Origin: Chlamydiota bacterium | Lineage (GTDB): Bacteria; Chlamydiota; Chlamydiia; Chlamydiales; RGXB01 | Assembly: GCA_947494155.1 (NCBI GenBank) | Contig: CANLTW010000017.1 | Span: 1 to 26,551 of the forward strand | Direction: 5' to 3' | Length of the DNA stretch: 26,551 nucleotides | Shown here: one piece after another, positions 9,001 to 15,000 of the stretch | Position numbering within the stretch: position 1 is the first letter of the stretch | Layout: every line of letters begins with the position of its first letter | Made by a program: the position numbers

Positions 9001-12000
9001 TTGAGCTCTTGTAGCCCCTTCTTCAACTCTTTTTTTGCCTCCGATGGATCGTAATTTTTAAAAAGCGCCCGATCCTCTTTTTTGAGAATAGGGGGGACAA
9101 ATCCTGTGGCGGCCAATTCCCCATTTTGCGTGATGTTTTCCACAATCGATTCCCTATTGATCGCCATACTAAACGCTTTTCGTATGTGGGCATTGTGGAA
9201 GGGAAAACTCGATACGTTGAAGGTGGTGAAAACGCTAAGGGCCAAATCCTTTTTTTGCAGGCGCTTTTTTTCTTTAAAGTCATGAATGGAGTCTACAGGG
9301 ATTGTGGTGAACGGGCCACCTATCAAATCGAGCTCATTTTGTTCGTAAAGATTGAGAGCTGTCGATTCATCCCTAATGAGGAGAATCTGCACCTCATGCG
9401 GTAGCACCTCGTTTTTAGCCCAGTAGGAGGCATTCTTTTGAAGAACGATCTTTTCATTCGGCAAAAAAGCCATGCATGTAAAGGGTCCGTTTGCAGGAGG
9501 CTGCTGCGTTTTTGACCATTTAGGATCGAGCTGGGCTTTCATTTTTGGTACCGGAAAGAAAACTGGGAAGCTTACCATCTGTAAGAAATAGGGGGCGGAG
9601 TGCTCCAGCTCCACTTGCAGGGTTTTCTCATCGATTGCTTTGACGCCAAAACAATCGGGTTCCAGTTCCCCCATTTTGATTTTTTCCCCATTTTTCACGA
9701 TGTAGAGCATGTGTGCGTTGGGGCATAAAAAGCTCGGTTTTATGCTCTCTTTCCAAGAGTATTCAAAATCATAGGCGGTCACTGGGGTTTTGTCGGACCA
9801 GAAAGCCTCCCTAAGTGAAAAGGTGTAAATCTTTTTGTCCTCTGAAATGTGTACCTCTTTTGCCATCCCGAATTCTCGAGTGGAATTTTTGGTGATACGC
9901 ATTAGACCCTCGTACAGCTGAAAATGTAATGCTGAGGAAAACTGGTCAGAGCTTTTTCTTGGGTCTAGTGTAGATGGGTCTTGCGTCATGTTAATGCGCA
10001 GAACGTGCTGGGCTAGCCGACTTTCTTTGGTTTCTCTGGTAAGATAAAAAAGGGTCATCGAAACAAGAGTTAAAGGTATCAAAGTACGAAACATGAAGAA
10101 AAAATAATACAAAAGAAGATTTTTTTGGACAACCCAAATATCAGATTCAAAGGGGAATAAAGGCCTCGATTTGACTTTAAACTTTTTTTACTTTATCGCT
10201 GAGAAAATGCATTTTTTTCGGTTTATAACCCCTTTTTTTCTCATAATCCTGTTAACGATTCCCCGCGTATTACTTCAGTCTTTTATAGTAGTAACCCTGC
10301 CTGTAATAATTAATAGCCTTGGTCTTACAAGCCTTCAAGCGAAATTAGTCACTCCAACTACTTTAATTGGGACCATGCTTTTTTTGATTCCGGCTGGTAT
10401 GATCGGTGACCGCTATGGGCCCAAAATAACTATAATCTATACAAGTATTGCCTTTTTTTTTATTTCAATTTTCGCCGCTTATTGCCATTCACCAGTGCTA
10501 TTTCTCATCCTCGTGTTTTTGTTAGGTGTTACAACCGCCTTCGGCATTACCCAAGGTAGCAGCTATGTAGCGGACATATACCCTTTTGAAATGCGCGGTC
10601 GAATTATTGGAACGTACTCCGGGTTAATCTCTTTGACGTTTTATTTAGGACCTGTTGTCGGTGGAGTGGTTGCAGAGTGGGGCATCAAAGGGATTTTTCT
10701 CTCGAATTTACCCTTACTTTTGATCGGTCTTATTTTTGCTAAAATTCTTCCCAAATTACATAAAGAGGAGAAGGCAATTGTAAAAAAAGAATACAAAAAC
10801 TACTTTAACAAATCTTTTTTGTCCCATTGCATGATAGGATTATTCTGGCAGGGTATTATTGCGCTGATAAGTTTTTTTCCTGCTGAATTTCAGGTGTACC
10901 TAAATTTAAGCCCGGTTGAATCGGGTATTTTGTACTCTATGCTCTCCATCCCCTTCCCCTTATTTAGCCCTATTGCTGGTTGGCTTTTTGATAAGATGGG
11001 GTTTAAGATCCCCTACGTGATAGGGTATGTGGCTCTTTTCTTTGCTTGGTTTTTAAGCTTTAATAATTTAAATCTCTATGCATTATGTGTTATGGCCTTT
11101 GCTTTAGCCTATGTATTACCTGTCTCAGCATCCGCCAGTTGGGGGCTTTTCAACCAGGATCATCGCTCAACAGCCAATAGTATTTATTTTCTTTTGCGAT
11201 TCGTAGGCTCTTTAATTGGAAACATCGTTGCGGGATATATTCTGTTCTTAGACGATACCTCAAAAGATTTTTTCTATTTTAATTATTCTATAGCCATTTT
11301 TTTAGGGATTTTGAGCCTTCCGGCATTCTTTTATGTCTATAGAGCTTCCTCGACTAAATAACCCCAAGTCCAAGCCGATCTATCTCTATTACGCTCTTTA
11401 ACTTATAAAATTATTTATAAAACTTATTGATGGCTACCCTTTTTTCTGTTATGAAAAGGGATTAGTGAACCCTGTCAAAGAAGGGCAAAAGGCAATTTAT
11501 GGACGAACAAAAATCCCAAGATACTGAGGCTTTGTTGGATGCAGTGGATATCCTTGCGGATGTGGTGGATATTGATCTGTCCTCCGATGAATCGGTTCAA
11601 AAAGGGGAGAAAACAGCCGATGCTCTAAAGGAAAAGTTTACCGTCATCCACAATTACCTAAAAGATGTCAACAAAGCCAAAAGCGTCGATCAGAAACTAG
11701 CCCGTGGAGTCCAATCGATTATCCAGCTTGCCTCGGAGGCAGCTACAAAAATTGACCGTATTTTACAGCAACAGGGTGTGAAAGGGGAACGTTTCAGCTC
11801 TTCTAAAGAGTTTACCGATCTCATAGGATTTTACAAAGAGACACTTAAAAAGCGGTTTGAAGAATCGCTTGAGAAGGAAGAGAGCTGGTATAAAGAGTGG
11901 GTTGAGGAGGATTTTGATCCGGTAGATATCCAAAGAAAGGGGTTGAGGGATTTAGAAATTGTCACCAAAGACAAGCACTACGAATTATTCTTTTTAACTA

Positions 12001-15000
12001 AAGAGGACGGGACGAGATTTTATAATAAAAGTCTTCTGAGGCATCTACGCCTTGTGGCCGATTTTGAGGCGCTGCTGTTAGATCAAAAAGAGGAGGATCC
12101 TATAGTGCGTATGGAGCGGATTAAAGATTCCTCCATCGCAAAAGCTGCCCGATCTATAAAAAAATCTACCCGCACCCTTTTCCAAAAATGGCTTCAACTT
12201 GCCTCTAAAAGGGACCAAGAGCGTATCGTGCGCCTTTTTTATCAGGCGTATATTGCTCTGACTTTTGCTGCAGAGCCGATCCACCTCATAGAGCAAGGGG
12301 GAAAAAAGAGCTGTCTTTCCTATTTCAGCGACTTTCAAAACTATATCCGGGAGCTTCTATTCGATATGGGGTACGGTAAATTAGTCGATAATCCCCCCGA
12401 TCCATCGGACCGTTTTTCCCTCTATTTTCTGGAGCTTGTTCACGCTTTGTGTTTTGCTATTTTTTCCCAAAAATTTGATCATGAGAGGGCTATCTCCTAC
12501 ATCTACCAATTAATTGGCAAAGAGTTGAAGAAAAATAGAAATACCGTTGATCCCTCTCACTTGGAGACCTACCATGAGATTATGGAAATCCACGAAATCT
12601 TGGGGAAAGAGTTAAATAAACACCCCAGCGGCCCCCTTTTCAAAGTGATAGAGATCTTCCAGCAACTGGATGAGCATACCGTTTTTGATCCTTATAGTCT
12701 GCGCAACATCGGTCACCGTTTCTTTGATCTTAATTATCTCGATAAAAAGGCCTCCATCTATCTACAACCTTGCCCTACGATGCAAGAGAGGATCGATCAG
12801 GCTCAACCCATTCCGGAGTACGAGGCCTTTTTAAGATCCACCCTTAATGATAAAGAGAATGTTCTTTGGATCAATCTGCAAGACAGGACCTCTCTAGAGG
12901 AATTCGCCCGCTGCAGAGAGCTGGAAAAAATTTCCCTTTGCGCCGAATTTCAACCCATACTTTCGCTTCTCACCCTACCTGTGTCGACCCCTTTTTATTT
13001 GCAATCTGAGGATTATCTAAAGCTTTCCGAAAAAAAGCAGTTCAAAAAAGTCTTTCTTGATCAGCTCTTATCCGGAATTCAGTGTGGATTTTATTACCCC
13101 GCTGATCTGGATGTGACAAAAGAGCTTTTCTCAAGCTTGATTGATGCGGTGGAAATCTGCAATTTTAAAGATAAAAAAGAACTCACAAGAAAAAATCGTC
13201 TCGATTGGATTGAGACGGTCTATTTATTATTGATTCTCAAGGCGGTAGAGAAAACAAAACCCCGACATATCGTTTTCATCTCTAAAGATGGCGTGGATGT
13301 TGGGGCTGTAACCATGGCAGCCTTTTACGCTCTGATTAAAATGCTAGATAGCAAGTCTAAATGGAAAGAGGGGGAAAAGGAGCTGTTTATTTCGATGCAT
13401 TTTTTACCCGCTCTGATGGAGCGCGAGCGCATAGTGGATCTTCATCGTTTAAATAGAACCATCTCCTCCATTTCTGTTTTGGCGGCTAATATAGAGGTGA
13501 AGGGGGGAAAGTTTGAGGGTATTGAGACCATCTTCCCTTCGAGCTTCCTTAAGGGACTTAGACTTTTGACTGACGAATAGTCGAAAAAAATCGGTTAGCT
13601 CCTCAAGAACTTTGGGGGATTTTCCTCGCTTTTGCTCAGTCGAAATGATCGAGCTATTCTCCTCAAGATGCTGCTCTTTTTCTTCAAAATCGGAAAGAGA
13701 GATCACATATTGAGGAGTGTTAGTTAATCCCTTTATAGGCAAAGAATTATCGGAAATTTGCTCTATTGAGGGCTTTTCGTTGTCTTCTGGTGAGATTAGA
13801 TGAGACTGGACTTGAGTCAAGCTCCTCTTTTTTTTTTATCCCTTCTGCATCTACAGAGGAGTCTAAAGCTTCGAGTGCATCCTGAGGGCTAAATGTTGCC
13901 ATTGCAACGGTTGCTGCCTCTTGAACTTTGATCTCATCAAACTCTTTGGCCAGCGCACACCCTCCAGCCATAGCCCTTTCTACCTTGATAGTGGGATTCA
14001 CGAACCAGTGTGAAACGGTTTTCAAACCCCAGGAGGCATATCCAACGCTCCCTTTGGATTTAACAACAGTCAGATGGTAATCTAAAGGTCGGGACAGATC
14101 CCCAATTCTTTTGTCAAAGTGGGTGCATGTAGCCTCTACCGATTTCTGTATTTTTACCAGCTCTTGCAAGTACTTTTTGCAAGTCTCTTGCAATTTTTCT
14201 ACCTGGCGCTGAATCTCCGGGCTTAAGTGCTTAAGCGTCTCCACATCCACAGGCTGGATAGGGGGGCGATCTAAAAAATGGATCCCCTTATTCACACTGT
14301 CTAAAAGAACATGTGAATGTGTTTGTGTTTCTTGGAATTTTTGGAAGAAGCGTTGAAATAGAGTCGATTGCTGTTCAAATTTTTTTATCTCATCTTCATT
14401 CAGTCTTTTGGCATTTGCCTCTAGCTGTTTTGTGGCGCTGCGGATGTCATCGATTGTAGAACCGATTTCTCCTACAGTCTCATCAAAATCGGGTTTTACC
14501 GATTCGTGCCAGTTGGAAAGGTTTTGATACACTTCATTAAAACTGATAGCAGGATCTTGGTAGTTCGGCAAAGCGAACGTTTTTCCATAATAGGTTACTA
14601 AGCTCATATACTCCTCGTTTTGTTAACGATTGATTAAGACAATGTTTAACAAAAATGTAGAATTATGAAAAGCGAAAAAGGGTTTTCAGTGTGTTTTGGA
14701 GCCTTTTTTTACGAGACAAAATCGGGGATTTTTTTTTATTTTTTACACAAAAAAAATTTTTGAAAAATGCGTTTCTTGCGAAAAAAAATTTAGTTTGCGT
14801 GAAGTTCTTTTGGAAAATGGGATACAAAGGTAAATCTTCCGCCTAGATCTTTGACGGCTCGTTGCCAAAGGTGTTCTGGTGGGGTGTGGAACAGATATTT
14901 TTTATCCATAGACCCTAAATACCATTCCCCCTGCAAAAATTCATCAATAAGTTTTCCCGGTCCCCATAGCGTGTAACCGACAACAAGGGCGATCTCTTTA

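What a model noticed while it worked through the whole genome (the two positions that open the first line are those of the whole stretch)
11499..13580. The phylum-wide chlamydial protein CT837 ('EF-hand', predicted Inc) is a PTP-fold pseudo-phosphatase; an intact CX5R par [...]
g01145 belongs to a single-copy family present in nearly all Chlamydiota, annotated in Chlamydia as 'calcium-binding EF-hand protein' and predicted as an Inc (CT837). Its C-terminal half has the protein-tyrosine/phosphoinositide-phosphatase fold with a degenerate P-loop (SKDGVDV here): the CX5R arginine is absent from every core orthologue examined. The genome also has a lineage-specific paralogue, g01192 (C19:4847-7399, another contig), with an intact CKDDLDR loop and SidP/SopB-like fold.
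Evidence so far: Matches in 145 of 150 genomes of the phylum, 26 of 26 Chlamydiaceae. P-loop column: no Arg in g01145 or 22 of 22 core orthologues, Ser for Cys in 6 of 6 Chlamydiaceae-family rows, while 5 of 5 extra paralogues and g01192 keep C and R. Model pLDDT 83; VIA ranks 1-19 are all PTP-fold enzymes, Z 9.6-10.7, incl. SopB, SidP, MTMR. g01192 model: best SidP Z 9.9, SopB Z 9.3. Names in call 193; Chlamydia orthologue is 658 aa and next to pheS, matching CT837 of 658 aa listed as predicted Inc in PMC3048545 (passages, call 205). 9 papers name CT837; passages read in three give no fold or enzyme class.
(Added by a program. Inside this text positions count along the whole contig: contig position 1 is position 1 of the stretch shown here. 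"Call 12" and the like, gene names such as g00115 and contig names such as C1 are that model's own, and its searches are not shown. The text may have been shortened before it was handed on; [...] marks where a part breaks off. The agent that wrote the report below was given it as the finding of a first reader that could run no searches.)

Follow-up and report, generated by a model that had tools for sequence, protein, structure and literature searches.

The report
Chlamydial CT837: a disabled phosphatase fold
A protein kept by most chlamydiae, labelled 'calcium-binding' or 'inclusion-membrane protein', is predicted instead to be a disabled relative of bacterial lipid phosphatases whose pocket is still strictly conserved, which suggests a binding job in the infectious form.

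Summary
Window 11499-13580 (+, 693 aa) is the orthologue of C. trachomatis CT837. Its C-terminal ~320 aa model as a cysteine-phosphatase (PTP) fold (pLDDT 90; Z about 10); an intact paralogue domain lies nearest SopB/SidP. The full-length core occurs in 140 of 150 genomes, not 145. The P-loop Arg is missing in 136 of 138 core rows, not all. Cys is replaced in 46 of 138, including 25 of 25 Chlamydiaceae. Loop Lys, Asp, Asp and two later Arg never vary. 38 of 39 paralogues keep C-x5-R, as does an unannotated sister family in Legionella and Piscirickettsia; rooted on these, the core is a derived clade. The predicted Inc 'hairpin' is the two helices flanking the P-loop; no EF-hand was found. Published data make CT837 an elementary-body, mid-late-cycle protein that was negative in two secretion assays. 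Best reading: a pseudo-phosphatase whose pocket was repurposed for binding inside the bacterium. Inactivity, ligand and location are inferred, not measured.

The parts
11499..13580 (+). ORF g01145, 693 aa, core orthologue of CT837/CTL0209/CPn0994
   Evidence: no Pfam or NCBIfam family over cut-off
11499..12614 (+). N-terminal, almost all-helical region (aa 1-372), found only in the core clade; fold not assigned
   Evidence: secondary structure; N-terminal profile scores >100 bits in 138 core rows, at most 27 bits in 39 paralogues and finds 0 of 120 gammaproteobacterial relatives
11970..11990 (+). Conserved patch D158-x-x-Y-E-L-F in the N-terminal region (D158 invariant)
   Evidence: D158 136/136, Y161 135/136, E162 and L163 133/136
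12306..12350 (+). Conserved patch K270...Y275-x-x-D278-F279...R284 (D278 invariant)
12615..13577 (+). PTP (cysteine-phosphatase) fold domain, aa about 373-693, shared with paralogues and the Legionella/Piscirickettsia sister family
12873..12911 (+). Strand-loop-helix N459-x-Q461...R471, near-invariant in the core; inferred from PTP topology to border the pocket
   Evidence: N459 132/138, Q461 136/138, R471 137/138; position in space inferred
13188..13256 (+). Helix 564-586; equals the first predicted 'transmembrane' segment of CT837 (543-561)
13281..13301 (+). Degenerate P-loop S595-K-D-G-V-D-V601 between strand 590-595 and helix 601-616
13299..13346 (+). Helix 601-616 after the P-loop; with the end of the loop it equals the second predicted 'transmembrane' segment of CT837 (573-592)
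13422..13448 (+). R642-x-R644...R650, at the position of the TI/Q loop (inferred); R642 and R644 invariant in the core, R650 conserved mainly in paralogues

Best explanation
The gene encodes the chlamydial core member (CT837 clade) of an unannotated family of cysteine-phosphatase-fold proteins related in structure to SopB/IpgD, SidP, SidF and the INPP4/P-Rex1 domain. The ancestor had a complete C-K-D-x-x-D-R loop. One copy, joined to a ~370-residue helical N-terminal region, lost the loop Arg early in chlamydial evolution and later lost the Cys several times, including in all Chlamydiaceae examined. It can therefore probably no longer run cysteinyl-phosphate chemistry. It was not left to decay: a different set of pocket residues became fixed. 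Most likely it is a soluble pseudo-phosphatase that uses the old pocket, with the N-terminal region, to bind a ligand or partner protein. It is made mid-to-late in the cycle and acts inside the elementary body rather than in the inclusion membrane. Shown by computation: homology, predicted fold, motif counts, direction of change, purifying selection, cause of the Inc prediction. From papers: elementary-body presence, late regulon, negative secretion assays. Inferred: inactivity, binding role, location.
For: Fold; language-model leads to IpgD (0.85) and SidP-type domains (0.84). Loop counts: Arg 2 of 138 core against 38 of 39 paralogues; K, D, D 138 of 138. Cys changes at least 8 times on the core tree. 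Reciprocal conservation at similar diversity (mean identity 0.33 vs 0.31): H455, Y457, N592, R601, R650 are held in paralogues and relaxed in the core; Q429, Q461, E476, D597, R642 the reverse. The core is one clade with loop columns removed (support 99) and derived when rooted on gammaproteobacterial relatives (97), which keep CKD[AG][IV]DR in 114 of 120. dN/dS is 0.05-0.17 in 5 of 6 pairs (one saturated), against 0.05-0.06 for pheS. Cys-to-Ser abolishes SopB activity (PMC13540636). SidF's triad includes the Asp just before the Arg (PMC6795519). Not secreted in a Yersinia 20-residue TEM-1 test (2.5%, PMC3931295 supplement) or in a BlaM test in C. trachomatis; chosen there as an elementary-body-only protein (PMC13251465). 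Chlamydiaceae have one family member each, 29 of 29, so no active partner of this family is available to regulate.
Against: No assay exists. 92 of 138 core proteins keep Cys, Lys and both Asp; invariant R642 might stand in for the lost Arg, and I had no coordinates to check this. One core row (G001) has a full C-x5-R. The authors of the BlaM test call the result 'unable to conclude' because two other fusions were not expressed. CT837 is co-regulated with type III effectors, which also fits an injected protein. The core was not found in 10 of 150 genomes, so it is not universal. Invariant charged residues could be structural. Sequence alone can misjudge pseudo-enzymes (PMC8269279).
Confidence: 0.55

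Rival explanations
1. Pseudo-phosphatase, but an effector: pre-packed in the elementary body, injected early, and acting in the host as a phosphoinositide- or phosphoprotein-binding decoy.
For: Elementary-body-only in proteomics (as cited); in a tight co-regulation network with TarP and other effectors; the nearest structures are effectors; one Legionella relative is labelled a Dot/Icm substrate.
Against: Negative in two secretion assays and scored NS in four prediction columns. The N-terminus is a conserved helix, richer in acidic residues than in paralogues. Single copy and slow evolution across very different lineages are unusual for effectors (general knowledge).
Confidence: 0.17
2. The pocket is closed and its invariant K/D/D/R/R residues form a structural salt-bridge network; function lies in the N-terminal helical region or another surface, as in the P-Rex1 IP4P domain.
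For: The Cys position accepts only C, S, D, N and the Arg position 14 residue types; acidic and basic invariants are balanced; the N-terminal region has its own invariant patches; P-Rex1 precedent.
Against: D597 and R642 are freer in paralogues with the same fold, so the fold does not need them; their fixation points to a new specific contact.
Confidence: 0.14
3. The core is still an enzyme with non-canonical chemistry: R642 or R471 replaces the loop Arg, at least in lineages that keep the Cys.
For: Cys is kept in 92 of 138 over the depth of the phylum; the SidF-type acid D600 is invariant; R642 is fixed only in the core.
Against: Cys changes at least 8 times, to S, D or N, with no change in the other invariants. 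Other residues held in intact paralogues (N592, Y457, R650) are relaxed too. Both Arg-bearing core rows lack these residues, which fits chance return of Arg at a free site.
Confidence: 0.12
4. The existing labels are right: an EF-hand calcium-binding protein or an Inc with a bilobal membrane hairpin.
For: Database names; bilobal prediction.
Against: No EF-hand Pfam hit and 0 of 136 rows match the EF-hand loop pattern (pattern recalled). The two segments straddle the P-loop and are helices of a globular domain. 0 of 25 Chlamydiaceae rows have both windows at hydropathy 1.6 or more.
Confidence: 0.02

Closest known systems
SopB/IpgD (PDB 8JZL) and Legionella SidP (4JZA), SidF (4FYE) phosphoinositide phosphatases
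   Same: PTP fold. These give the longest structural alignments to the intact paralogue domain (245, 252, 248 of 309 residues; Z 11.5, 11.0, 9.3; rmsd 4.6-5.0) and the top Foldseek rows (E 1.3e-3, 1.9e-3). Lys after Cys and Asp before Arg in the loop.
   Different: No sequence-level link: no PDB or Pfam hit with the paralogue profile; 7-13% identity. The core lacks the Arg, often the Cys, carries its own N-terminal region and was not secreted in tests.
P-Rex1 IP4P domain (pseudo-phosphatase of the SidF/SidP/INPP4 fold)
   Same: Same structural branch (Foldseek rank 8 for the paralogue domain, E 0.029); an active-site element repurposed for binding.
   Different: Eukaryotic, keeps C-x5-R, part of a GEF; the core here has lost motif residues and is bacterial.
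Inactive myotubularins (MTMR5/9/13) and STYX proteins
   Same: PTP-fold proteins with degenerate motifs kept as regulators (PMC8269279); MTMR2 and MTMR8 at Z 9.6.
   Different: Inactive MTMRs work with active paralogues; Chlamydiaceae have no second member of this family. STYX proteins lose the Cys and keep the Arg; here the Arg went first.
Chlamydial Inc proteins
   Same: CT837 and CPn0994 were predicted as Incs from two hydrophobic segments.
   Different: The segments are helices on either side of the P-loop in a globular domain; secretion was not detected.

Membership tests
PTP/CX5R cysteine-phosphatase fold | Alpha/beta domain with strand - P-loop - helix and structural match to solved PTP-fold chains | tested here: met
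   Strand 590-595, loop, helix 601-616; VIA Z 9.6-10.5 for PTP-fold chains; paralogue domain: all 50 listed VIA rows are phosphatase-fold chains, top Z 11.9. Predicted models only.
Active CX5R phosphatases (core clade, this gene) | Catalytic Cys in the P-loop | tested here: not met
   Ser here and in 25 of 25 Chlamydiaceae; Cys in 92 of 138 core rows overall.
Active CX5R phosphatases (core clade, this gene) | P-loop Arg six residues after the Cys | tested here: not met
   Val here; Arg in 2 of 138 core rows.
Active CX5R phosphatases (paralogues, g01192) | C-x5-R motif with an acid residue | tested here: met
   38 of 39 paralogues; Asp 39 of 39; 114 of 120 gammaproteobacterial relatives.
Active CX5R phosphatases (paralogues, g01192) | Measured phosphatase activity and substrate | not testable with these tools
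   Needs an assay; P-Rex1 shows an intact motif can be inactive.
SopB/IpgD (PF05925) or SidP (PF18363/PF18365) families | Sequence-profile match | tested here: not met
   No such Pfam family among 37 paralogue domains or P0001; no PDB phosphatase hit with the profile. Language-model scores 0.85 and 0.84 are leads only.
Pseudophosphatases | PTP fold with loss of essential motif residues | tested here: met
Pseudophosphatases | Demonstrated lack of activity and a non-catalytic function | not testable with these tools
   No biochemical data found in the literature searches.
Inc proteins | Bilobal transmembrane hairpin | tested here: not met
   Segments straddle the P-loop and are helices of the globular model; 0 of 25 Chlamydiaceae rows have both windows at hydropathy 1.6 or more.
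Inc proteins | Type III secretion and inclusion-membrane localisation | not testable with these tools
   Published: NS in the Yersinia 20-residue test, not secreted in BlaM, overall 'unable to conclude'; no localisation entry in PMC3048545.
EF-hand calcium-binding proteins | EF-hand loop motif or profile match | tested here: not met
   0 of 136 rows match the recalled pattern; no EF-hand Pfam family.

The most novel reading that the evidence does not exclude
The CT837 clade is a lineage-wide bacterial pseudo-phosphatase that became a sensor: its rebuilt pocket binds a phosphorylated small molecule or phosphoprotein and the helical N-terminal region passes the signal on, helping set or release the elementary-body state. 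Its catalytically intact sisters form a large undescribed family of phosphoinositide/inositol-phosphate phosphatases shared by environmental chlamydiae, Legionella and Piscirickettsia.
Probability: 0.2. Interest if true: 0.85.

Novelty: new variant of a known kind. Interest (0 to 1): 0.64.

Why it matters
It gives a predicted fold and a testable pocket to a conserved elementary-body protein of a human pathogen, and explains one database label (Inc) while finding no support for the other (EF-hand). Conserved pseudo-phosphatases are a eukaryotic theme; a bacterial one fixed across most of a phylum would be unusual. The same domain defines an unannotated family (2,035 clusters at 50% identity reach E 0.001) whose intact members are candidate lipid or inositol phosphatases of intracellular bacteria.

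Tried and rejected
Foldseek on the full model: nothing under E 0.001, dominated by helical proteins. Profile search of PDB sequences, Pfam and NCBIfam: no informative hit. ESM Atlas on residues 1-350: no usable hit; the N-terminal region was not folded alone, so its fold is unassigned, not shown new. Sigma-54 consensus (recalled) upstream: 0 of 137 core genes score 5 of 6 or more, in line with 'indirectly regulated'. Ser/Thr/Pro/Asn content of N-termini did not separate core from paralogues (0.22 each). Mutual-information contacts were an artefact of invariant columns and were discarded. Pattern scans of genome contigs could not run on either alignment. Phage records: no match. A complex prediction of the two halves gave no verdict because it never ran. 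Neighbourhood: the gene faces different convergent clusters (lptF/G in Chlamydiaceae; M32 peptidase-alr-lptF/G; DUF179-mlaD-ABC), with no shared operon, so I drew no function from it. Rejected: that core-less lineages are basal; f8, f11 and G054 sit inside the RpoB tree (single distant outgroup, root weak). Earlier scan notes: nothing relevant.
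Full report
OBSERVATION. Window 11499-13580 (+) is a 693-aa open frame; the opposite strand is closed. It has no Pfam or NCBIfam family over cut-off. I fetched the matching loci and sorted proteins without looking at the loop, by a profile of the N-terminal region: 138 proteins from 138 genomes score above 100 bits ('core') and 39 proteins from 26 genomes score at most 27 ('paralogues'). 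Adding one contig-cut core (G095) and one listed but not fetched (G008), the core is in 140 of 150. Five of the 145 have only paralogues (G033, G064, G108, G073, G054). The core was not found in these or in the five non-matching genomes even with the core alignment; G054 is a single contig rated 98% complete. On an RpoB tree of 30 genomes plus E. coli these lineages are nested, so these look like losses (root weak).

IDENTITY WITH CT837. The C. trachomatis orthologue is 658 aa and 76.4-76.5 kDa, the C. pneumoniae one 681 aa. PMC3048545 lists CT837 at 658 aa and CPn0994 at 681 aa in one orthologue group (passages); PMC13251465 gives 76.4 kDa. It follows pheS and faces lptF/G. Databases call it 'calcium-binding EF-hand protein' or hypothetical.

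FOLD. The AlphaFold model from 136 core sequences has pLDDT 90.2 and pTM 0.81: a mostly helical N-terminal half, then an alpha/beta domain in which strand 590-595 leads into the loop SKDGVD and helix 601-616. Foldseek finds nothing under E 0.001. VIA-align gives PTP-fold chains at Z 9.6-10.5, including SopB 9.9, SidP 9.6 and MTMR2 9.6, with one designed helical bundle at rank 6. The isolated domain of an intact paralogue (L071; pLDDT 91.7) is clearer: Foldseek ranks SopB (E 1.3e-3) and SidP (1.9e-3) first and P-Rex1 eighth. VIA gives SopB Z 11.5 over 245 residues (rmsd 4.6), SidP 11.0 over 252 (4.9), SidF 9.3 over 248 (5.0); the kinase-associated phosphatase KAP ties at 11.9 over 167. The core and paralogue profiles align over 280 columns at 100% probability. 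Language-model features point to IpgD and SidP-type clusters at 0.85 and 0.84, leads only. So the fold is well supported, and placement near SopB/SidP is likely but rests on alignment length, not on a clear Z gap.

THE LOOP. Counted in 138 rows (G079 dropped because its contig ends before the loop; G095 added): position 1 is C 92, S 43, D 2, N 1; K, D and the second D are 138 of 138; the Arg position holds 14 residue types, Arg in 2 (G001, CKDGLDR; G050, SKDGLDR). All 25 Chlamydiaceae have Ser. In paralogues C and R are each 38 of 39; these 39 are a subset, since searches left 37 and 64 matches unlisted. 149 of the best 150 hits of the paralogue profile among cluster representatives have C-x5-R, though that profile favours them. 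With loop columns removed the core is one clade (support 99); Cys changes at least 8 times within it. At similar diversity the two groups conserve different residues: H455, Y457, N592, R601, R650 in paralogues; Q429, Q461, E476, D597, R642 in the core (table ends at position 650). Both Arg-bearing core rows lack N592, Y457 and R650. dN/dS is 0.05-0.17 in five pairs and not computable in a sixth, against 0.05-0.06 for pheS.

DIRECTION OF CHANGE. A Piscirickettsia salmonis plasmid protein matches the paralogue profile (99% probability, loop CKDGIDR). It leads to 198 relatives, the named ones mostly Legionella, also Thiotrichales and Francisellaceae. Of the 120 listed, all match the profile, 114 have CKD[AG][IV]DR and none has the core N-terminal region. 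Rooted on 12 of them, 41 sampled core rows form a derived clade (support 97). The family is thus not confined to Chlamydiota, and the complete loop is ancestral. g01192 is a divergent member, found by profiles lacking it, with an orthologue in G069 and relatives with C-x5-R in other families.

THE OLD LABELS. The predicted Inc segments of CT837 (543-561, 573-592) lie on either side of the loop at 570-576; the same holds for CPn0994. They correspond to helices 564-586 and 601-616 of the globular model. No EF-hand was found (pattern recalled).

WHAT PAPERS SAY. PMC3931295 (abstract, two sections, one supplement row): first 20 residues not secreted by Yersinia. PMC13251465 (one section): picked as elementary-body-only; BlaM not secreted; overall 'unable to conclude'. 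PMC7482065 (passage and part of a section): mid-late gene, indirectly sigma-54 regulated. PMC10418237 and PMC4514472 (table passages): lowered together with late and effector genes. PMC4652624 (section): in a co-regulated virulence network. PMC5220689 (passage): SNP table only. PMC6795519 (passages, one section): SidF triad; P-Rex1 pseudo-phosphatase. PMC13540636 (passages): SopB Cys-to-Ser is inactive. PMC8269279 (passages): pseudophosphatase review. PMC11696984 (passages, supplement rows): only lpg0130 and lpg2584 carry a phosphoinositide-phosphatase domain among L. pneumophila effectors. PMC11445079 (supplement search): no mention. Ten searches showed no paper giving CT837 a fold or enzyme class. 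The library lacks most subscription papers, bioRxiv supplements were closed, most other supplements were not searched, and AlphaFold-based databases could not be checked.

MECHANISM. From established PTP chemistry, Cys attacks the phosphate and the loop Arg holds it; without both (Chlamydiaceae, this genome) catalysis is very unlikely, and without Arg alone unlikely. The fixed K596, D597, D600, R642, R644 and near-fixed R471, Q461, N459 argue that the site still does something specific. I therefore read the core as a pseudo-phosphatase with a repurposed binding pocket working in the elementary body (0.55). Rivals: an injected decoy (0.17), a closed structural pocket with function elsewhere (0.14), residual non-canonical catalysis (0.12). 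The position of residues in space is inferred from topology, since no coordinates were returned. The paralogues are probably active phosphatases of phosphoinositides or inositol phosphates (inference from motif and fold); some have signal-peptide-like N-termini and others long variable ones (read by eye).

VERDICT. Real and, as far as these searches reach, undescribed: a new pseudo-enzyme variant within a known fold, plus an unannotated sister family. Function remains to be measured. Interest 0.64.

Noticed in passing
L256:2429-4228 and proteins P0240-P0359: Unannotated sister family with an intact CKD[AG]IDR loop in Piscirickettsia, many Legionella species, Thiotrichales and Francisellaceae; no Pfam or NCBIfam family.
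   Followed up: partly
L080, L185, L188, L189, L191, L193, L195, L199, L192:907-2415, L194:2926-4476: A subset of intact paralogues starts with a signal-peptide-like hydrophobic stretch (read by eye), suggesting Sec-exported enzymes rather than type III substrates.
   Followed up: no
G054 (L078, L080, L200-L208): One-contig genome with no core gene found but 8 matches to the phosphatase domain, including a tandem pair with CKGRIDR.
   Followed up: partly
L074, L075, L186, L187, L190, L196: Very long paralogues (1100-1960 aa) whose other regions have no Pfam family over cut-off in the five scanned.
   Followed up: no
L192 and L194 (family f15): Tandem arrays of three paralogues with different loops (CKDGVDR, CRYGIDR or CKHGIDR, CRDGIDR).
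   Followed up: no
window 13747-18341 (-): Convergent cluster: 286-aa coiled-coil protein, DUF179, MlaD, ABC ATPase, MlaE. In Chlamydiaceae the convergent neighbours are lptF/G, also envelope-lipid transport; probably synteny, not a functional link.
   Followed up: partly
window 19481-22549 (-): Run of small genes including a TPR protein and a FliO-like protein; a GspD-like secretin lies at 1936-3291 (-).
   Followed up: no
L037 upstream of 2378: The ~310-base gap between pheS and CT837 appears to hold a tRNA gene (read by eye; not scanned).
   Followed up: no
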